Source: Escherichia phage HC12. From it: a DNA stretch of 39,342 bases. Under the pieces are notes generated by a model. The model saw nothing but the letters and a program-made list of their open reading frames with translations, was not told the DNA's origin and searched no databases. This document shows positions 1,792 through 35,889 of this stretch, in pieces; the stretch's first letter is position 1, and the number at the start of each line of letters is the position of its first letter. The position numbers were made by a program, and so were the translations under genes. The stretch lies in the sequence record OL362275.1, one strand, 5' to 3'.

Positions 1792-1835
1792 CTACAGGTC
1801 ATCAATGCTGGTGGCCTGACTGATAGGCATTAACA
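1792..1835 (+). promoter_or_regulatory. Early intergenic hairpin element, RNase III-type processing site candidate
   Basis: CTACAGGTCATCAATGCTGGTGGCCTGACTGATAGGCATTAAC, third copy of the element; AGGTCAT...TGGCCT imperfect stem. Confidence 0.4.
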
Positions 1836-1850
1836 ACTGAGAGGGAAGAT

Positions 1851-2078
1851 ATGAACACAATCACTGGTGCCATAACCAAAGGTTTTCGAGCAATTTTCGG
1901 TGAAACGCAAGAAGTATGCACCAATCATAAATTCGTACTTTCTTGCGTAGCAGGTGACGAGTTTGACGGGTTCGATAAACTGGTGGTTTGCGACCATTGC
2001 GGACAAGAGGCTATCCAACACTCAAACGGTAAATTTGAATTAATAGACGATAGCCTTACAGAAGGAGACGGCGAGTAA
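1851..2078 (+). CDS. Hypothetical early protein with four cysteines (possible zinc ribbon)
   Basis: RBS GAGAGGGAAG then ATG. 75 aa with C23, C32, C47, C50 (VVCDHCGQ). Confidence 0.65.
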   Translation: MNTITGAITKGFRAIFGETQEVCTNHKFVLSCVAGDEFDGFDKLVVCDHCGQEAIQHSNGKFELIDDSLTEGDGE

Positions 2079-2210
2079 CCTACATAAACAGGAGAGAACC
2101 AAATCATAGCTTGACCATAACACTGACGTGATGGTACTGAGTGATAGACGAGAGGTCATCGACTGATAGGTGGCCTCAAAGATTACCACTTACATTGATA
2201 GGAGTTAACT

Positions 2211-2315
2211 ATGAGCACTGCAATCATCTGGACTATCTCAGGCTTCGTAGCGTGGGGAATGTTTACTCTAGTCTGCAAACTACCGGTCCTTACTCAACTG
2301 TTATGGGGCTTATGA
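2211..2315 (+). CDS. Hypothetical small hydrophobic peptide (34 aa)
   Basis: GGAG RBS 7 nt upstream of ATG. Hand translation MSTAIIWTISGFVAWGMFTLVCKLPVLTQLLWGL. Its stop overlaps the next start as ATGA. Confidence 0.4.
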   Translation: MSTAIIWTISGFVAWGMFTLVCKLPVLTQLLWGL

Positions 2316-2515
2316 CTGTGAGTATCGCACTATTGATAGCCATAGGCTATGGACTTATCGCCTACGTGCTGGTGAGAGACATCAACAAAGCGCGTAAAGT
2401 CTACAAATTCAACTATGTACGTCTGGGTAGCTGGACTGTACGTCAACCTAACGGACGATTCATGCGTAACTTAGCGAACGTCTGGGATATAGCAACACTT
2501 GGGAGCAAACTGTAA
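2312..2515 (+). CDS. Hypothetical early membrane protein (one predicted TM helix)
   Basis: In-frame part of track ORF 2141..2515, which begins with GTG inside the upstream element. ATG at 2312 overlaps the preceding stop. Hydrophobic N-terminus MTVSIALLIAIGYGLIAYVLV. Confidence 0.5.
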   Translation: MTVSIALLIAIGYGLIAYVLVRDINKARKVYKFNYVRLGSWTVRQPNGRFMRNLANVWDIATLGSKL

Positions 2516-6263: not shown

Positions 6264-6443
6264 ATGTATCAGAACACTATCAACTTCGAGCGCATCCGTG
6301 AACGTCAGCAGACTGAAGGTTACATCCCTAAGGGCCGCAAGCTAAACAAGACCAAGCGTGGCGGTGGTGTCAAGGGTGCTTTCCGTAACGCTGAAGGCAA
6401 AGACTCTATGGTCAACCAAGAGAAGTATTTCGTAGGAGCGTAA
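6264..6443 (+). CDS. 1.1: gp1.1-like small basic protein
   Basis: Hand-translated 59-aa ORF MYQNTINFERIRERQQTEGYIPKGRKLNKTKRGGGVKGAF...; contains GRKLNKTKR as in T7 gp1.1. Absent from the track (under 60 aa). Confidence 0.65.
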   Translation: MYQNTINFERIRERQQTEGYIPKGRKLNKTKRGGGVKGAFRNAEGKDSMVNQEKYFVGA

Positions 6444-6446
6444 GAC

Positions 6447-6698
6447 ATGAGCAGACGTTGGGTATTCGATGCGTCAACCAGCCAGTGGTCATCGTTAGGC
6501 CGGACACACCGCGAGCTGAGTGAGGCAGGACTTGAGGTCAGAATGGATGTCCTGCCGTGCTCCGGAAAGACTCTGGTCCTAATCATTGAAGCAGACGGTT
6601 GGAGGATTCTGGTATCCCGCGAATTTACCAAAGATGAAATCTTTAGCTGTGAGCAATGGTGCTTACAACAATTGAACGCTTATAGGAGCTGGAAATAA
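6447..6698 (+). CDS. 1.2: gp1.2-like protein (in T7 an inhibitor of host dGTP triphosphohydrolase)
   Basis: RBS AGGAG. 83 aa. Immediately precedes ligase as in T7. Sequence similarity to T7 gp1.2 is only loose; the call rests mainly on position. Confidence 0.6.
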   Translation: MSRRWVFDASTSQWSSLGRTHRELSEAGLEVRMDVLPCSGKTLVLIIEADGWRILVSREFTKDEIFSCEQWCLQQLNAYRSWK

Positions 6699-7771
6699 TG
6701 ACAACTATTAAAACTAACCCGCACCGCGCTGTAGATTACTCTGAGTCAGGAGTTACGAAAGCACTGGCAGCAGCCGGGTCGCTGGAAGCTGAAGTGAAGT
6801 ATGATGGTGTGCGGCTGAACCTCCCGGTCTTCCCTACTGGTGAGACACAATGGTTGAGCCGTGAGTCTAAACCTCTCCCAGCCCTTGAGTGGCTGTCAGT
6901 CCTTACCAACATCGACAACATCGTCAGGGACCAGCAAAAAGCTAGCGACTGGCGGTGGTTCCTGAAGCAGGCTGGCTACGAAGGCACTGGCCTGATGATT
7001 GACGGTGAGGTCATGGTAAAAGGAGTGGACTTCAATACGTCTTCAGGTCTAGTCCGTACCATGTGGTCAGACACTAAGAACTACGCTTGGAATGGCAACC
7101 CAGATGCTGACATCGACACCAAGAAGAAGCATAAGGTCCCTTTCCATCTGGCAACCGACTACATACGCGTGGTTGTCTACGGTATCGTGGACCTTAACGT
7201 CATCCTTGACCCGAAATCCGAAGGTCCTATTCATAGCGTCACACGCCTGAAGGCCGAAGCTATCGTCCCTCTCCTCCAGAAATACTTCCCGGAAATCGAC
7301 TGGGTTCTGTCTGAGTCACACACGGTCTATGACCTTGAGTCGCTCAACTCCCTGTACGAACAGAAGCGTCTGGAAGGACACGAGGGTCTGGTAGTCAAGG
7401 ACCCGCTTGGTAAATACAAGCGAGGCAAGAAGTCTGGCATGTGGAAAATGAAGCCTGAGGAGACCATCGACGGGACCGTGTGTGGCCTCGTGTGGGGGAC
7501 TCCGGGTAAGGCCAACGAAGGTAAGGTGATTGGCTTTGAGGTTCTGCTTGAGGATGGCATGGTGGTTAACGCCTGTGGTCTGACTGAAGAACAGAAGGAT
7601 GAGTTTACGGAAGCCTGTAACACTGATACATATATTCTCGGTGGAATCAATCCATACGAAGGCTGGCAGTGTGAAGTCCTCTTCATGGAGCGCTTCCCTG
7701 ATGGTTCCCTTCGTCACCCTAGCTTCAAGTGCTGGCGCGGGACGGAAGACAATCCAACCGTTAAGAGTTAA
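6698..7771 (+). CDS. 1.3: ATP-dependent DNA ligase
   Basis: 357 aa. Active-site KYDG (AEVKYDGVR), plus EGHEGLVVKDP and KRGKKSGMWKMKPE aligning with T7 ligase. Confidence 0.95.
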   Translation: MTTIKTNPHRAVDYSESGVTKALAAAGSLEAEVKYDGVRLNLPVFPTGETQWLSRESKPLPALEWLSVLTNIDNIVRDQQKASDWRWFLKQAGYEGTGLMIDGEVMVKGVDFNTSSGLVRTMWSDTKNYAWNGNPDADIDTKKKHKVPFHLATDYIRVVVYGIVDLNVILDPKSEGPIHSVTRLKAEAIVPLLQKYFPEIDWVLSESHTVYDLESLNSLYEQKRLEGHEGLVVKDPLGKYKRGKKSGMWKMKPEETIDGTVCGLVWGTPGKANEGKVIGFEVLLEDGMVVNACGLTEEQKDEFTEACNTDTYILGGINPYEGWQCEVLFMERFPDGSLRHPSFKCWRGTEDNPTVKS

Positions 7772-7854
7772 CTAAATGTCAACCCAGTGGTCTTCGGACT
7801 GCTGGGTTTCTTTGCTTTGTGCTAGAAAGCTATCGTCTGGGCCACCAGCATGAC

Positions 7855-7903: not shown

Positions 7904-8164
7904 ATGTTTAAGAACTTAATGTTCAATCGTTATACCAGTACATTCCACCTGTCTAACAACCCGTTCGCTTGCATTAAGCGCAACGAGAAGCTGGGATACT
8001 TCGGGAAGGCCGTTAAGCTGTCACCTACAGTCTATGCTCTGATTACTCACGGCAAAGCTGAAGAGGCTCGCCAGAAGCGTGATACCGACGTACCTGTGGT
8101 ATACACCAAGTGGCCTCGCGTTCGTCTGTTTATTGAGTTCGTGAAGGAGGTGATCAATGGTTAA
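7904..8164 (+). CDS. Hypothetical protein (gene 1.6 position)
   Basis: In-frame ATG with AAGGAGG RBS downstream of the promoter; the track start at 7850 lies inside the promoter. Confidence 0.6.
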   Translation: MFKNLMFNRYTSTFHLSNNPFACIKRNEKLGYFGKAVKLSPTVYALITHGKAEEARQKRDTDVPVVYTKWPRVRLFIEFVKEVING

Positions 8165-8600
8165 GGTGGGGGATACAGTTAACTATGTTGGACCAGTTGG
8201 AGCGCACGCGGGACGCTCCTGTGGCAAGGTGATATTGGTTAAGAATGAGCATGTAGCTGTTGTTAAGTGGCCCCGTTTATCTGAACCACTCACTCACTCC
8301 ATTAGTTCCTTAAGTATTACCAAGCAGGCGCAGTCCGAGCCGACAACCATAGGTCAGGAAGATAGCGTCCGTAAGCCATCTCACTATCAGGTCTTTGACG
8401 GCGTGGAGTCCATTGAGATTATCGCTCGGTCCATGACTGTCAGTGAGTTCCGTGGCTTCTGCATGGGTAACGTCCTTAAGTATCGACTCCGGGCTGGTAA
8501 GAAGTCAGAGCTGGCGACTATGGAGAAGGACCTGAACAAAGCTGCCTTTTATCAGGAGCTGTTCGACCTACATAAAGGTAAGTGCTATGCTGCCGAGTGA
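8157..8600 (+). CDS. 1.7: gp1.7-like protein (nucleotide kinase family in T7)
   Basis: C-terminal 75 aa [73 protein letters not shown] align almost residue-for-residue with the T7 gp1.7 C-terminus. N-terminal half is different and shorter than in T7. Confidence 0.8.
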   Translation: MVKVGDTVNYVGPVGAHAGRSCGKVILVKNEHVAVVKWPRLSEPLTHSISSLSITKQAQSEPTTIGQEDSVRKPSHYQVFDGVESIEIIARSMTVSEFRGFCMGNVLKYRLRAGKKSELATMEKDLNKAAFYQELFDLHKGKCYAAE

Positions 8601-8682
8601 GTGGTGCGAGCGTAAATTTGAGGAGACAGGTAACGTCGATTACCTTCAGCTCTACAACTTATGGAAGGAGCGTGGTCTATGA
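8587..8682 (+). CDS. Hypothetical small protein (31 aa; gene 1.8 position)
   Basis: Hand-translated [31 protein letters not shown]. Stop overlaps the gp2 start. Confidence 0.3.
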
Positions 8683-8837
8683 CTGACGTAGAGAAGAAAT
8701 ACATCGTTGAGCTTGAGGGTCGCGTTCAGTCCTTCGAGGTTCCGTTGTACGCAAAGTCTCTAGAAGAGGCTACCCTGAAGTCCCAAGAGTATGAGGACGC
8801 TGGTTTTGTGGTCGGACGGATTCGTCCTGAGACCTAA
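8679..8837 (+). CDS. 2: Gp2-like inhibitor of host RNA polymerase
   Basis: Hand-translated 52-aa [55 protein letters not shown]. Aligns with T7 Gp2 ([34 protein letters not shown]). Absent from the track (under 60 aa). Confidence 0.75.
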
Positions 8838-8855
8838 ACTATCACTGTAGGACAG
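8833..8855 (+). promoter_or_regulatory. Phage RNA polymerase promoter (phi2.5-like), variant CACTGTAGG core
   Basis: CTAAACTATCACTGTAGGACAGA; -3 is G instead of A. Confidence 0.6.
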
Positions 8856-8895: not shown

Positions 8896-9588
8896 ATGGC
8901 TAAAGAGCAACTGAAGACTTTCACCACTCCGGTAGCTGGTATCGTTGAGCCTTACGCATGGCTGAACAAAGCAGACACCAAGTTTAATGAACGTGGTGAG
9001 CATAAGGTTAACCTGACGTTCGACCTGAGCGACCCGAAGGTCCGTAAGATGATTGATGTCTTACAGAAGATTCACGACGATGCGTATGCGAAAGCACTCG
9101 CAGACCACGAGAAGAACCCACCTCAGGTTCAGCGTGGCAAGAAGCCTATTGAACCACGTGAAGGCGACATGCCGTGGATTGAGAATGGTGACGGTACTGT
9201 TACCCTTAAGTTTAAATGCTTTGCGTCTTACCTGAAAGACGGCAAGTCCGAGCCTATCTTATTACGGTTCTACGACACCGATGCTAAACTCATCCGTGAC
9301 GTCCCGAATATTAGCGCTGGCTCCAAACTGAAGGTCAAGTTTAAAGTCCTGCCGTTCAAGTGGAACGCTGCGACCGGTGCAAGCGTTAAGCTCCAGCTTG
9401 AGTCCTGCCTTCTTGTAGAACTGAAGGAGTGGAAAGGTGCTGGTGGTGATGGTGGCTGGGGTGATGATGAAGACCTTGGTACTGGCTACAAAGCGCCAAC
9501 CGATGGTGACTTCGGGTCTGATGCCTTCGGTGACGATGGTTCCGAAGGTGGTGACGACTCCAGCTCTGGTGGCGATTACGACTTCTAA
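8896..9588 (+). CDS. 2.5: Single-stranded DNA-binding protein
   Basis: 230 aa aligning with T7 gp2.5 (AEPYA..., GKKP..P.EGDMP, KLKVK, ASVKLQLES) with acidic C-terminal tail ending in F. Confidence 0.95.
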   Translation: MAKEQLKTFTTPVAGIVEPYAWLNKADTKFNERGEHKVNLTFDLSDPKVRKMIDVLQKIHDDAYAKALADHEKNPPQVQRGKKPIEPREGDMPWIENGDGTVTLKFKCFASYLKDGKSEPILLRFYDTDAKLIRDVPNISAGSKLKVKFKVLPFKWNAATGASVKLQLESCLLVELKEWKGAGGDGGWGDDEDLGTGYKAPTDGDFGSDAFGDDGSEGGDDSSSGGDYDF

Positions 9589-10040
9589 TGGCCCAATGGT
9601 CTGCAAAACGGGGGCACTCTGTGGGTGCCTACCGCTCTGGACTTGAAGCCAAGAACCAGCAGTGGCTGGAACAGAACGGCGTCAAAGCGGAGTACGAAAG
9701 CCATTATATCAACTATGTGATTCCGGCTTCCGACCACAAGTACACACCAGATTTTATCCTTCCTAACGGTATCATCGTGGAGACCAAAGGTATCTTCGAT
9801 AGTGATGACCGTAAGAAGCACCTTCTGGTACGAGAACAGCACCCAGAGTTAGACATCCGTTTCGTGTTCTCAAGTTCACGCTCCAAGTTATACAAAGGGT
9901 CTCCAACCACGTATGGCGCATGGTGCGAAAAGAACGGCTATAAGTATGCCGATAAATTCATCCCGGTTGAGTGGCTTAGAGAGGCGACTGTACGTCTGCC
10001 TTCAGGTATACTCATCCCCAAGAAGAAAGGAGTTAAGTGA
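9588..10040 (+). CDS. 3: Endonuclease I (Holliday junction resolvase)
   Basis: 150 aa, near-colinear with T7 gp3: YTPDFILPNGIIVETKG (PD...ExK), HLLVREQHPELDIRFVFSSSRSKLYKGSPTTYG. Confidence 0.95.
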   Translation: MAQWSAKRGHSVGAYRSGLEAKNQQWLEQNGVKAEYESHYINYVIPASDHKYTPDFILPNGIIVETKGIFDSDDRKKHLLVREQHPELDIRFVFSSSRSKLYKGSPTTYGAWCEKNGYKYADKFIPVEWLREATVRLPSGILIPKKKGVK

Positions 10041-10531
10041 TGAGCAAGAAGTTTAAACTGTTAGTAGATGCGCATGGCTGGCCTAGTGGGACTATAGTTA
10101 CCAAGTGTGAGAATGACCCCGTACCAGATTCAAGAATGACCCTAGTTGAGTGCCAGATTCCAGGCGCATACAAACATGGGTCTAACGGCTGCAATACTCA
10201 GCCTGAGGGTATGTGGGGAGCATGGGTCCTTAATTGGAAACTTGAGGAAATCAAGCCGGAAGAGAAACTCACTGGTGTCCAAACCACTCAAGTCCTGCCA
10301 GCTTCGAGCGTACCGCCTGTGACTTTGAAGCGTGAAGTCCTGACCATCGACAAGATTGGTGTAGGCCAGACGTTCATCGTCCATGGAAAGCCTGAAGAAG
10401 TTTACGTGAAGATTAGCAACTCACACGTCTTCAACCATAAGCATCTCCAGATGCACACCACGGACGCACAACGCTTCACCCAGCACCTGAATCTGGTTGT
10501 CGTAGAATTGGTGGTGTACAATGGTAAGTAA
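10040..10531 (+). CDS. Hypothetical protein inserted between endonuclease I and lysozyme
   Basis: 163-aa ORF; ATG overlaps the gene 3 stop (TGATG). No counterpart at this position in T7. No motif recognised. Confidence 0.65.
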   Translation: MSKKFKLLVDAHGWPSGTIVTKCENDPVPDSRMTLVECQIPGAYKHGSNGCNTQPEGMWGAWVLNWKLEEIKPEEKLTGVQTTQVLPASSVPPVTLKREVLTIDKIGVGQTFIVHGKPEEVYVKISNSHVFNHKHLQMHTTDAQRFTQHLNLVVVELVVYNGK

Positions 10532-10979
10532 GGTACAGTTCAATCCACGGTCCCGGACCGACGCTATCTTCGTACACTGTTCGGCTACCAAGCCAGAGAT
10601 GGACATCGGGGTAGAGACCATCCGTATGTGGCACAAGCAGCAAGGCTGGCTGGACGTAGGCTACCACTTTATCATCAAGCGCGATGGCACTGTGGAAGAG
10701 GGACGCCCGGTCAATGTCGTAGGGTCACACGTTAAGGACTGGAACTCACGGTCTGTAGGCGTCTGCCTTGTAGGTGGAATTGACGCTAAGGGCAAGTTTG
10801 AAGCTAACTTCACTCCGGCCCAGATGAACTCCCTGCGCAACAAGCTGGCTGACCTGAAGGACTTGTATCCTCAGGCAGAAATCAAATCACATCATGACGT
10901 AGCACCAAAGGCGTGTCCAAGTTTCGACTTGCAACGCTGGCTGTCTACCAATGAACTGGTCACTTCCGACCGAGGCTAA
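10521..10979 (+). CDS. 3.5: N-acetylmuramoyl-L-alanine amidase (T7 lysozyme)
   Basis: 152 aa, near-colinear with T7 gp3.5: TDAIFVHCSATKP, GWLDVGYHFIIKRDGTVE, HHDVAPKACPSFDL, C-terminal ELVTSDRG. Confidence 0.95.
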   Translation: MVSKVQFNPRSRTDAIFVHCSATKPEMDIGVETIRMWHKQQGWLDVGYHFIIKRDGTVEEGRPVNVVGSHVKDWNSRSVGVCLVGGIDAKGKFEANFTPAQMNSLRNKLADLKDLYPQAEIKSHHDVAPKACPSFDLQRWLSTNELVTSDRG

Positions 10980-10997
10980 ACTATCACCGTAGGGATG
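10975..10997 (+). promoter_or_regulatory. Phage RNA polymerase promoter, variant CACCGTAGGG core
   Basis: GCTAAACTATCACCGTAGGGATG; two core substitutions relative to the consensus. Confidence 0.55.
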
Positions 10998-11042
10998 AGA
11001 CCACGAGTCTTGTCCCTTTGTTCGCATTTGAGATTAAGAAAT

Positions 11043-11121
11043 GTCTCCATAGCTCAAACGGTAGAGCGGCGGGTCGTGATGGCCTATTGCGATTAGGGTT
11101 CGAATCCCCGTGGAGACGCCA
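11043..11121 (+). tRNA. tRNA-like element (canonical acceptor, D and T arms, encoded CCA; anticodon arm non-canonical)
   Basis: GTCTCCA...TGGAGAC perfect 7-bp acceptor stem. D arm GCTC-AAACGGTA-GAGC with G18G19. T arm with GGTTCGAATCC. Discriminator G then CCA. The 26 nt between the D and T arms do not form a clean 5-bp anticodon stem; best fold gives loop GTCGTGA (anticodon CGU, Thr) with an imperfect stem. Confidence 0.45.
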
Positions 11122-11132
11122 CTAAGGAGTGA

Positions 11133-12836
<1,704 letters not shown>

Positions 12837-13106: not shown

Positions 13107-15278
13107 ATGTTTGACCTTAAGAGTATCTGGGGTTCTGACATCGAGACCAACGGTCTCCTTGATACAGTCTCCCAGTTTCACTGTGGGGTCCTGATTAACG
13201 CCGAGTCGAATGAGACCCTTAAGTATGGGGTAGCTCCGATGGTCGGTATCGTCGGTGGCTTCAAAGAGTATGTGCAGAAGGTGGAAGAGATTGCCGCATC
13301 ACCTGATGGTATGCTGGTATTCCACAACGGTATCAACTATGACGTCCCGGCTATTGACAAGCTGAAGCGTCTGTACTTCGGGAAACGCTTTAACTTCCCG
13401 AAACACAAGATGATTGATACCTTGGTGCTGGGTCGCTTGATGTATCCCAACATTAAGTTCTCAGACATGGGCGCGGTGAAAGCTGGTCGTCTGCCTCCTA
13501 AGATGATGGGACGCCAGTCTCTTGAGGCTTGGGGTTATCGTCTCGGTGAGATGAAGGGTGAGTACAAACACGATTACGTTGCCAAGTGCAAGGCAGAAGG
13601 TATCGAATATAAGGCTGGGGACGAATGGTTGTTCCCGTCTCAGGAGATGCTGGACTATAACGTTCAGGACGTTGTGGTCACACTGGCGTTGTTCAAGAAG
13701 TTCCTGACTGACAAGTATTACTTCCAGTCTGAACAGTTCGCTTTCGACCAGATTTATGCGTTGCGTCTGGAACATGATGCTGCGTGGACCTGTGCGAAGA
13801 TGGAACGTAACGGCTATCCGATGAACACCGAGATGGTCGAAGGTTTATATCGTGAACTCACCGTCAAACGTGCAGAGCTGTTGGACAAGCTGCGTTCGAC
13901 TTTCGGCAGCTGGTACGCACCAAAGGGAGGCAAGGAGTTCTTCAAGCACCCACGGACAGGCAAGGACCTTCCGAAGTATCCGCGAGTCGTGTATCCTAAG
14001 GTCGGGTCAGTATTCAAGAAGCCGAAGAACAAAGCTCAACGCTTAGGTCTGGAGCCTTGCGAGTTCGACTCACGAGACACGATGGAAGGAGCACCGTTCA
14101 CGCCAATCACTTACGTTGAGTTTAATCCGGGAAGCGGAGACCACTTAGCGAAAGTCTTGATGGAGCGTGGTTGGGAGCCTGTGGACTTCACTGACACTGG
14201 GAAACCTGTAGTCGATGACGAGACGTTAGAACACGTTAAGCTACCAGACGCAGAGGCTCAGGCTTGCGTAGAGCTGGTCCGTGAGTATCTGGTAGTCCAG
14301 AAGCGCATCGGTCAGGCGGCTGAAGGTAAGAACGCATGGTTGAAACTTGTAGGTCCAGACGGACGTATGCACGGCTCAATAAACCCATGCGGGGCAGTAA
14401 CCGGACGTGCGACCCATAGTTCACCAAACATGGCTCAGGTACCTGCTAACGGTGCTCCGTATGGTGAGACTTGCCGTGGTGCTTTCGGTGCAGCGTGGAA
14501 CAAGAAGGACGGCAAGCCAGACCCTTGGATTCAAGTTGGTGTGGATGCCTCAGGTCTTGAGCTTCGTTGTCTTGGGAACAGAGCGGCTCCGTTTGATGGT
14601 GGTGCCTATGCGAAGACTGTGGTCGAAGGTGACATCCACTGGGCCAACGCAGTAAACGCTGGGTTAGCACCTAACGTCCAACGCGATAAGTCTAACCACG
14701 ACCATGAGGCTTTCCGTAACAACGCTAAGACGTTCATCTACGCGTTCCTGTATGGTGCAGGGGCCGCTAAGATTGGACTGATAGTAGGCGGTGGTAAGAA
14801 GGAAGGTTCAGCGCTCATGAAGAAATTCATTGAGGGTACACCAGCTATCAAGGACCTCAGGGAAGCTGTGCAGAACACGCTCATCTCTGAGTCCAAATGG
14901 GTAGACGGTGAGAACATCGTGAAGTGGAAACGCCGCTGGCTGAAAGGTCTGGACGGTCGACGCATCCACATCCGGTCGCCACACTCAGCACTGAACGCCT
15001 TACTTCAAGGTGATGGTGCGGTAGTCTGTAAGCACTGGATTGTTGAGACTGAACGTATGCTTGAAGCCGAAGGATATGTCCACGGCTGGGATGGAGACTT
15101 TGCGTACATGGCATGGGTGCACGATGAGCTACAAATTGCCTGTAAAAACAAGGACTTAGCAGAACGCGTAGTAGAAATTGCTCAACTTGCTATGCGTAAG
15201 GTTGGTGAGTTCTATAACTTTAAATGTGTGTTAGACACGGAGGGTAAAATTGGACCAACGTGGAAAGAATGCCATTGA
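13107..15278 (+). CDS. 5: DNA polymerase (family A, T7-type)
   Basis: Colinear with T7 gp5: exo motif DIETNGL, FHNGINYDVPA, pol motifs GRATHSSPNMAQVP and VHDELQ. Start set to ATG 13107 (GGAGGA RBS); the track start at 13071 is GTG inside the hairpin. Confidence 0.97.
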   Translation: MFDLKSIWGSDIETNGLLDTVSQFHCGVLINAESNETLKYGVAPMVGIVGGFKEYVQKVEEIAASPDGMLVFHNGINYDVPAIDKLKRLYFGKRFNFPKHKMIDTLVLGRLMYPNIKFSDMGAVKAGRLPPKMMGRQSLEAWGYRLGEMKGEYKHDYVAKCKAEGIEYKAGDEWLFPSQEMLDYNVQDVVVTLALFKKFLTDKYYFQSEQFAFDQIYALRLEHDAAWTCAKMERNGYPMNTEMVEGLYRELTVKRAELLDKLRSTFGSWYAPKGGKEFFKHPRTGKDLPKYPRVVYPKVGSVFKKPKNKAQRLGLEPCEFDSRDTMEGAPFTPITYVEFNPGSGDHLAKVLMERGWEPVDFTDTGKPVVDDETLEHVKLPDAEAQACVELVREYLVVQKRIGQAAEGKNAWLKLVGPDGRMHGSINPCGAVTGRATHSSPNMAQVPANGAPYGETCRGAFGAAWNKKDGKPDPWIQVGVDASGLELRCLGNRAAPFDGGAYAKTVVEGDIHWANAVNAGLAPNVQRDKSNHDHEAFRNNAKTFIYAFLYGAGAAKIGLIVGGGKKEGSALMKKFIEGTPAIKDLREAVQNTLISESKWVDGENIVKWKRRWLKGLDGRRIHIRSPHSALNALLQGDGAVVCKHWIVETERMLEAEGYVHGWDGDFAYMAWVHDELQIACKNKDLAERVVEIAQLAMRKVGEFYNFKCVLDTEGKIGPTWKECH

Positions 15279-15666
15279 CGGAAAGTCCCTGCATTATACA
15301 GGTGCTGCGAGCGAGTTGTATGCGAGCTACCGACTGACGGCTATGGGACACCAAGTCTTCCTACCTGCGTTCACCCAGTCCAAAGCGGACTTAGTGGTGG
15401 ATATCAACGGGACCCTTATGAGGGTTCAGGTGAAAACTGGGACCAAGCTGAAGAACTGTAATAGCATTCAGGTCCGGCTTGGTGGGTGCGGTAAGCCAAC
15501 TTACAGTCCTGGAGACATCGACCTACTAGCGGTTGTCTATCAGGATTTGCTCTGGCTTATACCGTTCACTGAAGAGGTTAGAGTCAAGACCTCTATGTGT
15601 ATAAACTTAACGTCTGACAAGAAGTACGGACAATTTAAACAGGAGAAGACTAATGGCTATTACTAA
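15250..15666 (+). CDS. Hypothetical protein, possible PD-(D/E)xK-like nuclease fold
   Basis: 138-aa ORF overlapping the last 29 nt of gene 5. TTG start with GGAGGG RBS (alternative internal ATG at 15343). Segment ADLVVDINGTLMRVQVKTG resembles the D...(E/Q)xK core of Hjc-type resolvases; weak by-eye inference. Confidence 0.5.
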   Translation: MDQRGKNAIDGKSLHYTGAASELYASYRLTAMGHQVFLPAFTQSKADLVVDINGTLMRVQVKTGTKLKNCNSIQVRLGGCGKPTYSPGDIDLLAVVYQDLLWLIPFTEEVRVKTSMCINLTSDKKYGQFKQEKTNGYY

Positions 15667-15937
15667 ACGTATTCGTGTGAGTTTTGATCTGAAGATGGTT
15701 GTTAACTCAAAGGAAGAAGATACCATGTGTCGCCAACTGGCTGAGATGACTAAAGCCTACGCTGAGGGTGAGGAGCTGGATGGTCTTCAGTTGGCTATGG
15801 TAAAAACCGCAATCGAGTCAGGCCCTGAGTCTGCCCTTGAAATTGCCCTCAAGAAGACCATCAAGGAGGAGCTGGTAGACGACTTTGGTTATGGCCAGTT
15901 CGGAGTATCTAACCTGCGATTCGAGGTCAAGCAATGA
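15653..15937 (+). CDS. 5.5: gp5.5-like protein
   Basis: RBS AGGAG. N-terminus MAITKRIRVSFDL resembles T7 gp5.5; position conserved. Confidence 0.65.
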   Translation: MAITKRIRVSFDLKMVVNSKEEDTMCRQLAEMTKAYAEGEELDGLQLAMVKTAIESGPESALEIALKKTIKEELVDDFGYGQFGVSNLRFEVKQ

Positions 15938-16143
15938 GTGAATACTTACGGGTCCTAGCGGCCCTTAAGTCCTGCCCGAAGACCTTCCAGTCCAACTACG
16001 TGCGCAACAATGCGGCACTGGTGGCTGAGGCTGCGAGTCGTGGACATCTGAGCTGTCTGTCTATGGACGGGCGTAACAACGGTGCGTGGGAGATTACCGC
16101 TGCTGGCACCAAGTTCCTGAACCAACATGGAGGATGCCTGTGA
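15934..16143 (+). CDS. 5.7: gp5.7-like protein
   Basis: 69 aa, near-colinear with T7 gp5.7: LKSCPKTFQSNYVRNNAALVAEAASRGHLSCL...GAWEITAAGTKFL. Confidence 0.85.
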   Translation: MSEYLRVLAALKSCPKTFQSNYVRNNAALVAEAASRGHLSCLSMDGRNNGAWEITAAGTKFLNQHGGCL

Positions 16144-33564: not shown

Positions 33565-35745
33565 ATGTCCACGATTACACAATTCCCTTCAGGAAACACT
33601 CAGTACAGGATAGAGTTCGACTACCTAGCCAGAACGTTTGTTGTTGTTACGCTGGTGAATAGCTCTAACCCTACCCTGAACCGTGTACTGGAAGTTGGTA
33701 GAGATTACCGATTCCTTAATCCAACGATGATTGAGATGTTGGCTGACCAATCAGGTTTCGACATCGTTCGTATTCACCGTCAGACTGGAACTGACTTAGT
33801 GGTAGACTTCAGGAATGGCTCAGTGTTGACGGCTAGTGACCTGACCAATTCAGAGCTTCAGGCTATCCATATTGCAGAAGAAGGTCGAGACCAAACGGTT
33901 GACTTAGCGAAGGAATATGCCGATGCTGCTGGTAGCTCTGCTGGCAACGCTAAGGATAGCGAGGACGAAGCACGACGAATGGCGGCGAGTATCAAGGAAT
34001 TTGGTAAAATTGGCTATATTACCCGTCGCTCCTTCGAGAAAGGCTTCAACGTTACAACATGGAACGAGGTCCTGCTATGGGAAGAGGATGGTGCTTATTA
34101 CCGCTGGGATGGTACGCTTCCAAAGAACGTTCCCGCTGGTTCAACTCCTGAATCATCTGGTGGTATTGGGCTGAGTGCGTGGGTTAGTGTTGGTGATGCG
34201 TCACTTAGAGCAAACCTGTCTGATAGTGATGGCGCTAAATACATAGGCAGTGGAGAAAGGACATTACTTGAGCACAACAATGATGTTTTGCACTCAAAAG
34301 ACTTCCCAACACTGCAGGCAGCTATAGATGCATCTTTGCAAAAAAATGATCTACTGGTGTCTCCTGGAAATTATACTGAAAAAGTTACTATTGGAAACGC
34401 GCAGTTAAAAGGTGTTGGCGGGGCCACGGTACTAAAAACTCCGGCAGACTTTACAAACACTGTTCAGGTTAATTTAGCTACACCTAATTGGCAATTCCGC
34501 CATAGTGGTGGTTTTGCTATAGATGGTTCCGGGACAACCGGGGCCGTAGGTATTAGTTTTGACCCGTCAGACCAATATTCCGGACGTCATAATTTTAGTG
34601 ATGTATACATCCACAACATCAACAAGGCCATTCAGAAGCCTTCCGGGAACATCGGCAATACTTGGAGAAATATTGGGATATCTACGTGTGATTGGGGGTA
34701 TTACGCGATTAGTGGCTCAGAGATGCATTGCGGGGCCGATACCCTCTACAATATCCACTTCGATGGCATCTCCACCTATGCAGTCTATCTAGACGGCACT
34801 GTCGATAATGGCGGGGTGGGCGCATGGTGGCTTAAAGACTCCATTATTGAGGCTTCCGGAGGTGGCGGGATATACTTAAAAAGTAAATCGGGCGACTGTC
34901 CTACATCTCCATGCGGGGTATCCAATATATGGATGGAAGCGATCGCAACATCACCGGCTGTTCAGGTAGACGGCGTGGCGCAAAAACCGCGAGTTCTCAA
35001 GTTGGTAGACACAGCGATATTCTTTGCTGAGTATTCTTATCTCAACAACATCGAGCTATCCAACTCCAACTTAGTAACTTATGGTTGCCGTTTTGACAAC
35101 GCTGATGGTAATCAGGATATTGTCGTGGATGCACAAAGTACCATTGTAGCCCATGACGTGTATTTAAACGGCAGTTCTGGAAAGGACGTTATTGTGGAGT
35201 CCGTCGCATCGCAATCTGCAACTATAGCTACCACAAACTTATCTCTGAGGGGCAACTTAACAAGAGGGAGAGTATTTAATACGCCGACAGGGAATAAATT
35301 AATGGCTATCACATTTGACTCAGGTAGCCATAAGTTTTCTGGCAGCGGCACCGTTAACGGTTCGACTGTATCTGACGGACTTCACGCCGCTACATGTACC
35401 GAATTTTCATTCCCCGGAGCCGGTTTATATGAAATGGTAGCGACAAGAACAACCATTACATCCGGTAGATGGTACGTGTGGGGAGTTAACTCACGCCTAC
35501 AATCTGGCTCGGCGGATATTAGTATAACGTCAGGTATTACCATGGGTAGTGTTTACACAAAGCCGGGGGAGTGGATTAGCACTTTCGGTGTAGGAAAGGC
35601 ATCTACCACTGGCACTGTAGCGCTATACGTTTCCACAGGAGGAGGTTCGGGAGCTACGGTCAGATTCAGTGACTTTTTCATCGCTGAGTTTACGACGCAA
35701 GCTCAGGCTTTAGCTTTCGCCAATTCAAGGATGTCGTTATCATAA
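33565..35745 (+). CDS. 17: Tail fibre / tailspike: conserved T7-type N-terminal adapter, divergent C-terminal receptor-binding domain
   Basis: N-terminal 150 aa (FDYLARTFVVVTL, DYRF, LVVDFRNGSVLTASDL, IHIAEEGRD) align with T7 gp17. Remainder unrelated to T7, Gly/Ser/Thr/Asn-rich with repetitive beta-strand-like segments. DNA becomes AT-rich from about 34200. Confidence 0.9.
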   Translation: MSTITQFPSGNTQYRIEFDYLARTFVVVTLVNSSNPTLNRVLEVGRDYRFLNPTMIEMLADQSGFDIVRIHRQTGTDLVVDFRNGSVLTASDLTNSELQAIHIAEEGRDQTVDLAKEYADAAGSSAGNAKDSEDEARRMAASIKEFGKIGYITRRSFEKGFNVTTWNEVLLWEEDGAYYRWDGTLPKNVPAGSTPESSGGIGLSAWVSVGDASLRANLSDSDGAKYIGSGERTLLEHNNDVLHSKDFPTLQAAIDASLQKNDLLVSPGNYTEKVTIGNAQLKGVGGATVLKTPADFTNTVQVNLATPNWQFRHSGGFAIDGSGTTGAVGISFDPSDQYSGRHNFSDVYIHNINKAIQKPSGNIGNTWRNIGISTCDWGYYAISGSEMHCGADTLYNIHFDGISTYAVYLDGTVDNGGVGAWWLKDSIIEASGGGGIYLKSKSGDCPTSPCGVSNIWMEAIATSPAVQVDGVAQKPRVLKLVDTAIFFAEYSYLNNIELSNSNLVTYGCRFDNADGNQDIVVDAQSTIVAHDVYLNGSSGKDVIVESVASQSATIATTNLSLRGNLTRGRVFNTPTGNKLMAITFDSGSHKFSGSGTVNGSTVSDGLHAATCTEFSFPGAGLYEMVATRTTITSGRWYVWGVNSRLQSGSADISITSGITMGSVYTKPGEWISTFGVGKASTTGTVALYVSTGGGSGATVRFSDFFIAEFTTQAQALAFANSRMSLS

Positions 35746-35889
35746 AAACAACCTCAGCCGAATCGGGTTATTTATCATCAGAACGGTATTGAATAATCGA
35801 AGGTTGTGGAGGTAGAGGATAACTACACGTTGACCAACGTATGATAACAACTTTGGGTCACGGACGACCCGCTTTAAACTGGAGGTTTT

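What the first reader, a model, noticed from the sequence alone, without database searches (positions are those of the whole stretch)
10040..10531. Unknown 163-aa gene between endonuclease I and lysozyme
In T7 gene 3.5 follows gene 3 directly. Here a translationally coupled ORF with no motif I can recognise occupies the junction. Such insertions between conserved class II genes are typical sites for accessory or host-interaction genes.
Basis: partly seen in the sequence, partly recalled or inferred. Interest (0 to 1): 0.55.

Follow-up and report, generated by a model that had tools for sequence, protein, structure and literature searches.

The report
Kayfunavirus gene 3.2, uncharacterised two-domain protein
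The ORF is real and is gene 3.2 of K1F-like (Kayfunavirus) phages, a catalogued protein of unknown function. It has a constant C-terminal domain found in essentially every phage of the genus and a fast-evolving, swappable N-terminal domain, which makes it a reasonable but untested candidate for a host-interaction factor.

Summary
Window 10040-10531 (+) encodes a 163-aa protein. Its ATG overlaps the endonuclease I stop (TGATG), and its last 11 nt overlap the amidase/lysozyme start.

The window is a Kayfunavirus, 99.7% identical to Escherichia phage LM33_P1 over 9000-12000. The ORF is the named gene 3.2 of K1F and EcoDS1 (PHROG 16385 and 15211) and is 100% identical to database entries. It is already catalogued, but I found no described function.

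New descriptive points:
- The C-terminal ~70 aa is a genus-wide core. It occurs in 219 phage records, against 220 records with Kayfunavirus-type gp3. dN/dS is about 0.1.
- That C-terminal domain is fused to at least 7 unrelated N-terminal modules, or to none (74-aa form).
- The N module here is a confident SH3-like barrel. Its loops are hypervariable: nucleotide diversity is 0.32 against about 0.05 in the flanks.
- No Pfam, NCBIfam, PADLOC or PDB sequence match was found. The fold matches are generic small barrels.

Best guess (about 0.4): a cytoplasmic class II adaptor. The constant domain would bind a conserved partner, and the variable head would engage, or evade, fast-evolving host factors.

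Interest is modest. The gene is ordinary for phage genomes and its mechanism is unproven.

The parts
10040..10531 (+). Gene 3.2 CDS (163 aa plus stop)
   Evidence: ORF. Full-length match to PHROG 16385, E=5.4e-95. 100% identical to the LM33_P1 protein, and annotated gp3.2 in K1F and EcoDS1. dN/dS 0.24.
10027..10032 (+). Shine-Dalgarno sequence AAGGAG, 7 nt upstream of the ATG, inside the end of gene 3
   Evidence: Read directly from the sequence.
10038..10042 (+). TGATG stop/start overlap between gene 3 and gene 3.2 (translational coupling)
   Evidence: The same junction is seen in K1F, EcoDS1, Bas105 and PSTCR2.
10040..10255 (+). N-terminal module 'N1' (aa 1-72): SH3-like beta-barrel with a conserved scaffold (GWP, GTIVT.C, DP.P, LVE, KHG, TQP.GMWGAW) and hypervariable loops (aa 9-12, 28-33, 43, 51, 64-67)
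10256..10318 (+). Flexible Pro/Glu/Thr/Gln-rich linker (aa 73-93), including the conserved stretch QVLPASSVPP
   Evidence: pLDDT <50 for aa 75-92. Length-variable, with PEVGEQTP-type repeats and a ~60-aa extra domain inserted here in some homologues.
10319..10528 (+). Constant C-terminal module (aa 94-163): small six-stranded barrel with the invariant motif SNSHxFN-x4-QMHTT-x3-RF. It equals the whole 74-aa short form of gp3.2.
10521..10531 (+). 11-nt overlap of the gene 3.2 end with the gene 3.5 (amidase/lysozyme) start
   Evidence: The same overlap is annotated in K1F, EcoDS1, SH3, Bas105 and others.
8833..8855 (+). Phage-RNAP promoter of phi2.5 type. It most likely drives the 2.5-3-3.2-3.5 class II transcription unit.
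   Evidence: Identical to the annotated EcoDS1 phi2.5 promoter (CCTAAACTATCACTGTAGGACAG), 3 mismatches to the 23-nt consensus of the EcoDS1 promoters. The consensus scan (<=5 mismatches) found no other match before 17133; a more degenerate phi4-type match at 10974-10996, read by eye, overlaps the gp3.5 stop. No convincing terminator in between.
9588..10040 (+). Gene 3, endonuclease I (upstream neighbour, coupled)
   Evidence: PF05367, E=2.8e-81.
10521..10979 (+). Gene 3.5, N-acetylmuramoyl-L-alanine amidase / T7-type lysozyme (downstream neighbour, coupled)
   Evidence: PF01510, E=8e-17; PHROG 822, E=6.9e-80.

Best explanation
Gene 3.2 encodes a soluble cytoplasmic middle (class II) protein built as 'constant anchor plus exchangeable head'.

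Shown:
- It consists of two small SH3-like beta-barrels joined by a disordered linker.
- The C-terminal barrel is a genus-wide, strongly constrained core that can exist alone as a 74-aa protein.
- The N-terminal barrel is one of at least 7 unrelated modules found at that position. Within the type present here, its loops evolve at or above the neutral rate while its scaffold is conserved.

Inferred:
- The C-terminal barrel binds a partner that is conserved across all Kayfunavirus hosts or phages. This could be a conserved host machine or a core phage protein.
- The N-terminal barrel adds a second, lineage-specific protein-protein contact with a rapidly diversifying host factor. Examples would be a strain-variable defence or stress protein that it inhibits, recruits, or must avoid being sensed by.
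- Functionally this would make it a host-takeover or counter-defence adaptor that tunes fitness on particular strains, not a replication or structural component.
For: Real, expressed-looking gene:
- Strong RBS, coupling to gp3 and gp3.5, and position in the phi2.5 class II unit.
- Purifying selection.

Constant/variable architecture:
- The C domain is in 219 records, against 220 with Kayfunavirus-type gp3.
- An exhaustive HMM search of 1.84 billion representatives finds only 16 clusters. All share the C domain, or are fragments, and they carry unrelated N-terminal sequences. The locus translations agree.
- Short 74-75-aa forms exist in SH3, Dev2 and many Salmonella phages.

Structure:
- The N domain is a confident SH3-like fold. 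The linker is disordered. The C domain is a small barrel.

Divergence:
- Nucleotide diversity peaks at 0.32 over 10066-10245, against about 0.05 in gp2.5, gp3 and gp3.5.
- N-domain nucleotide identity is 63-90% where the flanks are 94-98%.
- In a six-genome alignment this is one of about 17 regions with pi>0.2. Among the top-ranked windows listed it is the one with no gaps, i.e. fully alignable; the listed windows of the early genes, the 1.x genes, the 15.2-16 kb region and the tailspike all carry some gaps.
- Loop sites 11, 28, 30, 31, 43 and 64 have dN / mean dS of 2.2-2.9. Sites 66 and 67 have p about 0.04-0.05. Scaffold sites are strongly negative.

Other:
- The N1 type is enriched in E. 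coli phages: 45 of 104 Escherichia/Kayfunavirus-named records, against 1 of 59 Salmonella-named records.
- No transmembrane segment or signal peptide; pI 7.8.
- In the CR44b record, whose notes mark the gene products that matched in mass spectrometry, the gene 3.01 homologue carries no such note.
Against: - No partner, phenotype or biochemical activity is known or shown here. The adaptor mechanism is inferred from architecture and evolutionary pattern only.
- The per-site positive-selection signals are weak. They are uncorrected, parsimony-based, from 24 sequences, and ignore recombination. Pooled dN/dS of about 1.5 at loop sites (my arithmetic) comes from sites picked post hoc, so relaxed constraint on surface loops explains the data equally well.
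- The genus-wide presence and T7-core-like conservation of the C domain fit a housekeeping role in the phage cycle as well as an accessory one.
- The host association of N1 is confounded by phylogeny and by many near-identical isolates.
Confidence: 0.4

Rival explanations
1. gp3.2 is a core partner or regulator of the flanking enzymes. The candidates are endonuclease I (junction resolution, host DNA breakdown) and gp3.5 (amidase and RNAP regulator). The constant C domain would bind or modulate one of them. The N-domain variability would then reflect escape from bacterial immune sensors that recognise this abundant middle protein, not an offensive function.
For: - The gene is always directly coupled to gp3 (TGATG or ATGA overlap), even in the distant Studiervirinae phage PSTCR2, where two further ORFs separate it from the endolysin.
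- It has an 11-nt overlap with gp3.5 throughout Kayfunavirus.
- The C domain is present in 219 records, against 220 with Kayfunavirus-type gp3, and is as constrained as gp3 and gp3.5: dN/dS 0.09, against 0.15 and 0.11.
Against: - About 1230 other Autographiviridae records with endonuclease I lack any gp3.2 homologue. T7 gp3 and gp3.5 work without one.
- Kayfunavirus gp3 and gp3.5 have ordinary lengths and domains.
- Synteny and coupling are common in T7-like genomes and do not imply physical interaction.
Confidence: 0.2
2. gp3.2 is a nucleic-acid-binding small-barrel protein (KOW, Tudor or Sm-like) that acts on phage DNA or RNA during class II DNA metabolism. An alternative version is that it docks on host RNA polymerase in the way CarD, Mfd or UvrD Tudor-like domains do.
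For: - The C-domain model's best solved-structure matches are translation and RNA-associated barrels: EF-P domain I, ribosomal L2 and eIF5A. Weaker matches include CarD and the UvrD C-terminal domain bound to the RNAP lobe.
- The C-domain pI is 9.2.
- The gene lies among DNA-metabolism genes.
Against: - No known nucleic-acid-binding motif or Pfam hit was found.
- The invariant motif SNSH..FN..QMHTT..RF is polar and aromatic, not basic.
- A hypervariable partner domain is not expected for a nucleic-acid ligand.
Confidence: 0.15
3. gp3.2 is an SH3b-like cell-wall-binding accessory supplied in trans to the adjacent amidase. This would be analogous to the cell-wall-binding domains of modular endolysins.
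For: - Immediate coupling to the amidase gene.
- SH3-like folds in both domains.
Against: - No Pfam SH3_3, SH3_5 or SH3b hit at E<=1.
- No signal peptide or transmembrane segment.
- The matches are weak and mixed with hundreds of unrelated barrels.
- Peptidoglycan is conserved across Enterobacterales, so a hypervariable, cassette-swapped domain is unexpected.
- Endolysins of Gram-negative T7-like phages function without binding domains (established knowledge of T7 gp3.5).
Confidence: 0.06
4. The ORF is spurious or a decaying remnant with no function.
For: It has no recognisable family or motif.
Against: - 255 homologues, with the reading frame intact.
- dN/dS 0.09-0.31 by domain.
- Strong RBS and coupled start.
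- Confident predicted folds.
- Genus-wide retention.
Confidence: 0.01

Closest known systems
gp3.2 of Escherichia phages K1F and EcoDS1 (also gene 3.01 of Citrobacter phage CR44b, gp3.2 of Cronobacter phage Dev2, and the LM33_P1 'Phage protein'); PHROG 16385 (long form) and PHROG 15211 (C domain / short form)
   Same: - Same gene. It is 100% identical to LM33_P1, 86.5% to EcoDS1 gp3.2 and 79% to K1F gp3.2.
- Same position between genes 3 and 3.5, with the same overlaps.
   Different: Nothing material. The family itself has no assigned function in any record or paper I could find.
SH3-like small beta-barrel superfold (eukaryotic SH3, KOW/EF-P domain I, FeoA, Tudor, ribosomal L2 barrels)
   Same: - Predicted topology of both domains.
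   Different: - No sequence-profile membership in any SH3, KOW or Tudor Pfam family.
- Sequence identity in the structural alignments is 4-17%.
- The characteristic SH3 ligand-binding motifs were not demonstrated.
- The fold alone predicts protein or nucleic-acid binding only in the loosest sense.
Non-essential host-interaction proteins of T7 (Ocr/gp0.3, gp1.2, gp2, gp4.5, gp5.5, gp5.7, gp5.9)
   Same: - Small, soluble, early or middle proteins wedged between conserved genes.
- Several of their loci are also divergence hot spots in the Kayfunavirus comparison: the early region, the 1.x genes and the region after gene 5.
- The K1F gene list lacks genes numbered 0.7, 4.5 and 5.9, so unfilled host-takeover roles plausibly exist. 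This last point is inference from the T7 gene map, which I know from the literature, not from a test here.
   Different: - No sequence or specific structural similarity to any of them was detected.
- Those proteins are single-domain. gp3.2 has a two-module architecture with a genus-wide constant domain.
Modular phage receptor-binding proteins (conserved anchor plus exchangeable specificity domain)
   Same: The evolutionary logic is the same: a conserved module, a cassette-like exchangeable module, and a recombination boundary in a linker.
   Different: - gp3.2 is a cytoplasmic class II protein, not a virion component. It carries no virion mass-spectrometry flag in the CR44b record, has no signal peptide or transmembrane segment, and lies far from the structural genes.
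- The polarity is reversed: the constant part is C-terminal.

Membership tests
Kayfunavirus gp3.2 family (PHROG 16385 / 15211) | Full-length sequence match to the family profile | tested here: met
   PHROG 16385 E=5.4e-95 over aa 1-163; PHROG 15211 E=4.3e-39 over aa 94-163. 79-100% identity to the annotated gp3.2 proteins.
Kayfunavirus gp3.2 family (PHROG 16385 / 15211) | Position directly after endonuclease I and before the amidase, with overlapping stop/start codons | tested here: met
   Window junctions TGATG at 10038-10042 and an 11-nt overlap at 10521-10531. Same layout in K1F, EcoDS1, SH3, Bas105, SP7, EPr2 and LET1.
Kayfunavirus gp3.2 family (PHROG 16385 / 15211) | Invariant C-domain motif VYVKISNSHVFN...QMHTT...RF | tested here: met
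   Present at aa 121-146. These columns are invariant even in the most divergent members.
SH3 / SH3-like small-barrel domains | Match to a curated SH3, SH3b, KOW or Tudor sequence profile | tested here: not met
   No Pfam family at E<=1 for the protein or for nine architectural variants. No NCBIfam hit.
SH3 / SH3-like small-barrel domains | Five- or six-stranded small barrel topology superposable on SH3 structures | tested here: met
SH3 / SH3-like small-barrel domains | Binding of proline-rich or other defined ligands through the RT and n-Src loop groove | not testable with these tools
   No complex prediction or binding assay was available. The hypervariable positions fall in the inter-strand loops, which is compatible with ligand binding but not diagnostic.
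SH3b-type cell-wall-binding module of endolysins | SH3b sequence signature, export route, or fusion to the lytic enzyme | tested here: not met
   No SH3_3, SH3_5 or SH3b Pfam hit. No signal peptide or transmembrane segment. It is a separate ORF in a different frame from gp3.5 with no slippery site evident.
Conserved T7 (Teseptimavirus) gene set | An orthologue in T7 between genes 3 and 3.5 | tested here: not met
   T7 gene 3 ends at 10706, where gene 3.5 starts. None of the 220 tblastn matches listed or tallied was a T7-type phage, and only 219-220 of 1452 endonuclease I-bearing records carry the C domain.
Known anti-phage defence, counter-defence or immunity proteins | Profile match to a catalogued family | tested here: inconclusive
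   No PADLOC hit. PADLOC models defence proteins, not anti-defence proteins. No dedicated anti-defence library was available. The BFVD structural search returned only uncharacterised proteins.

The most novel reading that the evidence does not exclude
gp3.2 could represent an undescribed class of intracellular phage adaptor. It would be a genus-wide constant barrel that docks on a conserved target, coupled through a flexible linker to a cassette-exchangeable, diversifying 'specificity head'. There are at least 7 unrelated head types, plus hypervariable loops within a type. The head would recognise strain-variable host immunity or stress proteins. In effect this would be an intracellular analogue of modular receptor-binding proteins, and a new anti-defence (or immune-evasion) family specific to K1F-like phages.
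Probability: 0.25. Interest if true: 0.65.

Novelty: already known. Interest (0 to 1): 0.33.

Why it matters
K1F-like phages (K1F, LM33_P1, CLB_P1 relatives, and many Salmonella Typhi and Enterobacter phages) are used in phage-therapy work. A hypervariable, cassette-swapped intracellular protein is the kind of determinant that could explain why phages that adsorb equally well differ in productive host range.

If the constant domain has a conserved target, it would also identify a genus-specific step of host takeover. This matters because K1F's annotated gene list contains no genes numbered 0.7, 4.5 or 5.9.

As it stands, the result mainly re-labels an 'unknown insertion' as a catalogued conserved hypothetical gene. 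It adds a description of its modular architecture and evolutionary pattern, and provides concrete constructs for experiments: the C domain alone, the N domain alone, and allele swaps.

Tried and rejected
1. Sequence families. Pfam, NCBIfam and PADLOC gave no hit for the protein or its variants. PHROGs returned only the two function-unknown families.
2. PDB sequence search with the family profile. Only chance-level hits, E 0.58 and 1.6.
3. Exhaustive profile search of 1.84 billion representatives. Only 16 clusters, all within the family. There are no bacterial homologues and none in other phage groups, apart from a divergent branch that includes Providencia phage PSTCR2.
5. Internal duplication. 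In hhalign, N1 shows nothing against C or against N2. The N2-type module shows only a weak 16-column match to the first hairpin of the C domain (P=1e-3). This is suggestive but not established.
6. A frameshift fusion of gp3.2 to the amidase. Rejected: the frames differ by +1 and there is no slippery sequence. The overlap looks like ordinary coupling with the gp3.5 RBS inside the gene 3.2 end (and the RBS table in PMC4925675).
7. RNA element or hidden overlapping gene as the cause of conservation. Rejected: synonymous divergence in gene 3.2 (dS 0.44-0.82) is higher than in the flanks (0.24). Rfam finds nothing in the gene.
8. Literature. 'gp3.2' appears only in an annotation table (PMC4925675). 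The K1F genome paper is not held. The BASEL, HIDEN-SEQ and accessory-gene screen papers do not mention this gene.
9. Site-wise positive selection. My SLAC-like count gives only marginal uncorrected signals. I do not claim demonstrated positive selection.

Full report
**What is there.** Window 10040-10531 (+) is an intact ORF of 163 codons.
- Its ATG shares the A of the endonuclease I stop codon (TGATG, 10038-10042).
- It is preceded by AAGGAG at 10027-10032.
- Its last 11 nt overlap the start of the amidase/lysozyme gene at 10521.
- The GTG one codon upstream is not conserved in relatives, so ATG 10040 is the start.
- The flanking genes are Phage_endo_I (E=2.8e-81) and Amidase_2 (E=8e-17).
- In T7 these two genes abut directly.

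**What it is called.** The window is a Kayfunavirus, a K1F-like member of the Studiervirinae. Positions 9000-12000 are 99.7% identical to Escherichia phage LM33_P1.
- The ORF product is 100% identical to the LM33_P1 'Phage protein', 86.5% to EcoDS1 gp3.2 and 79% to K1F gp3.2.
- In those records it is gene 3.2, at the same position and with the same overlaps. CR44b calls it 3.01.
- It matches PHROG 16385 end to end (E=5.4e-95). Its C-terminal 70 aa match PHROG 15211 (E=4.3e-39). Both families are 'unknown function'.
- Pfam, NCBIfam, PADLOC and a PDB sequence search gave nothing.
- The only literature mention I found is a line in an annotation table (PMC4925675). Other searches were empty.

The gene is therefore already catalogued but uncharacterised.

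**Distribution.**
- tblastn finds the protein in 219 phage records at E<=1e-5. Relaxing the threshold to E<=1e-2 adds one divergent copy in Providencia phage PSTCR2.
- Endonuclease I at >=80% identity, which marks the Kayfunavirus cluster and is separated by a clear gap from other genera, is found in 220 records out of 1452 with any endonuclease I.
- Essentially every Kayfunavirus therefore has the gene, and almost nothing else does.
- An exhaustive HMMER profile search of 1.84 billion cluster representatives returned only 16 clusters. None is bacterial.
- In PSTCR2 the divergent homologue also follows endonuclease I with an overlap. Two more small ORFs then precede the endolysin.

**Architecture.** Only 54 of the 219 records cover >=80% of the query. 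The rest match only the C-terminal part. Translating related loci and representatives gives the following picture.
- A constant C-terminal module of about 70 aa carries the invariant motif SNSHxFN-x4-QMHTT-x3-RF.
- That module stands alone in some phages as a 74-75-aa protein (SH3, Dev2, many Salmonella phages).
- Otherwise it is preceded by one of at least seven unrelated N-terminal modules.
- The window's type, N1, has the scaffold GWP...GTIVT.C..DP.P...LVE...KHG...TQP.GMWGAW. It occurs in 55 records, mostly E. coli phages.
- A second type (DLEVG.RYRF...) occurs in 27 records.
- Some proteins carry both modules, giving 221-227 aa.
- The modules are joined by a Pro/Glu/Thr/Gln-rich linker of variable length.

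**Structure.**
- AF2 models aa 1-72 confidently (pLDDT about 85-90) as five strands. The linker (aa 75-92) is disordered.
- The C domain needed a more diverse alignment. With it, the model has pLDDT 79.9 and six strands.
- BFVD returns only family members and other uncharacterised proteins.
- The protein has no transmembrane segment or signal peptide. Its pI is 7.8, and the C-domain pI is 9.2.

**Evolution.**
- Across 15 N1-type genes, dN/dS is 0.31 for the N domain, 0.23 for the linker and 0.087 for the C domain. The values for gp3 and gp3.5 are 0.15 and 0.11.
- Synonymous divergence in the N domain (0.82) is more than three times that of the flanks (0.24).
- Nucleotide diversity rises from about 0.05 in the flanking genes to 0.32 at 10066-10245, and falls back within the C domain.
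- Pairwise, the N domain is 63-90% identical at the nucleotide level where the flanks are 94-98% identical.
- In a six-genome alignment this is one of about 17 regions with pi>0.2. Among the top-ranked windows listed it is the one without gaps. The others are the early genes, the 1.x genes, a region after the DNA polymerase, and the tailspike.
- Variable positions cluster in the inter-strand loops: aa 9-12, 28-33, 43, 51 and 64-67.
- A SLAC-like count on 24 unique genes gives dN/dS of 0.58 for the N domain and 0.11 for the C domain. Several loop sites have dN 2-3 times the mean dS. Two sites reach p of about 0.04-0.05 uncorrected. Scaffold sites are strongly negative.
- I regard this as 'at or above neutral in the loops'. 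It is not proven positive selection.

**Expression context.**
- Using the annotated EcoDS1 promoters as a consensus, a phi2.5-type promoter lies at 8833-8855, upstream of gene 2.5.
- The consensus scan found no other phage promoter, and the terminator scan no convincing terminator, between there and the end of gp3.5.
- A degenerate phi4-type match at 10974-10996, found by eye, overlaps the gp3.5 stop.
- Gene 3.2 is therefore part of the class II unit 2.5-3-3.2-3.5.
- In the CR44b record, whose notes mark the gene products that matched in mass spectrometry, the homologue carries no such note.

**Interpretation.**
- Shown: this is a real, constrained, cytoplasmic middle gene. It encodes two small barrels on a flexible tether, with a genus-wide constant C module and an exchangeable, fast-evolving N module.
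- Inferred (confidence about 0.4): the constant module docks on a conserved partner, and the N module provides a lineage-specific contact with a diversifying host factor. That is a host-takeover or counter-defence adaptor.
- Main rival (0.2): a core partner of endonuclease I or gp3.5, whose exposed N module diversifies to escape immune sensing.
- Lesser rivals: a nucleic-acid- or RNAP-binding barrel (0.15), and an SH3b-like wall-binding helper for the amidase (0.06).
- A spurious ORF is excluded (0.01).
- None of these can be decided in silico with the tools available. The decisive experiments are listed separately.

**Verdict.** As a gene it is already known (K1F gp3.2, PHROG 16385/15211, identical sequence in GenBank), and its function is unknown. 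The modular constant/variable architecture and the sharply bounded divergence island are useful descriptive additions, but they are typical of phage accessory loci. Interest is 0.33.

Noticed in passing
window 11043-11121 (+): A tRNA-like gene lies between the amidase gene and the primase/helicase gene, ending in the gp4 ribosome-binding region.
- ARAGORN calls it tRNA-Thr(CGT), 79 nt. Rfam tRNA scores 36.7 bits against a gathering score of 29.
- The anticodon arm region is 4 nt longer than the model. The anticodon and T stems contain mismatches, so it may be a degenerate or unconventional tRNA.
- tRNAs are unusual in T7-like phages.
- The 166-nt region is fully conserved in about 34 Kayfunavirus records. 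A few annotate it as tRNA-Thr, tRNA-OTHER or a pseudo-tRNA.
- Its function is untested. Possibilities are decoding, a decoy for anticodon nucleases, or an RNA processing site.
   Followed up: partly
window 10979-11136: The window lacks gene 3.7, which K1F, EcoDS1, Bas105, ST31 and others carry between gp3.5 and gp4. Here the gp3.5 stop is overlapped by a degenerate phi4-type phage promoter (about 10974-10996, 6 mismatches to the EcoDS1 consensus, read by eye). The tRNA-like element follows directly.
   Followed up: partly
P0054, P0101, P0102, P0107 (221-227 aa); P0022 and P0113 (linker repeats): Three-module variants of gp3.2 exist: N1, then a ~60-aa 'DLxVGEEYRIHPDL...' barrel, then C. There are also variants with duplicated linker units (TGVQT / PEVGEQTP). 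This shows that modules are inserted and exchanged within the linker. The inserted module has a weak 16-column similarity to the first hairpin of the C domain.
   Followed up: partly
L033 (Providencia phage PSTCR2) 1746-2778: This unclassified Studiervirinae phage has a divergent gp3.2 homologue coupled to endonuclease I. Two further small ORFs (117 and 79 aa) follow before the endolysin. The gene 3 / 3.5 junction therefore acts as an accessory-gene slot outside Kayfunavirus too.
   Followed up: partly
window 1801-2400, 6376-7800, 8101-8700, 15151-15975, 33901-35850: These are the other high-divergence or replacement regions in a six-genome Kayfunavirus alignment (pi 0.34-0.60, with gaps in the top-ranked windows listed). 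They correspond to early genes, the 1.x gene block, the region upstream of gene 2, a segment after the DNA polymerase, and the tailspike. None was examined further.
   Followed up: no
phage records NC_007456.1 / DQ111067.1 versus AM084414.1 (K1F): The two independent K1F genome records differ at this gene. In NC_007456 the match to gp3.2 stops at residue 141 (87% coverage). In AM084414 it is full length. This suggests a frameshift or sequencing difference near the 3' end in one record.
   Followed up: no
phage record MT350292.1 ('Enterococcus phage EFA-1'): A record labelled as an Enterococcus faecalis phage carries a typical Kayfunavirus endonuclease I / gp3.2 / amidase block (72% identity to the query protein). 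The host assignment is probably wrong.
   Followed up: no
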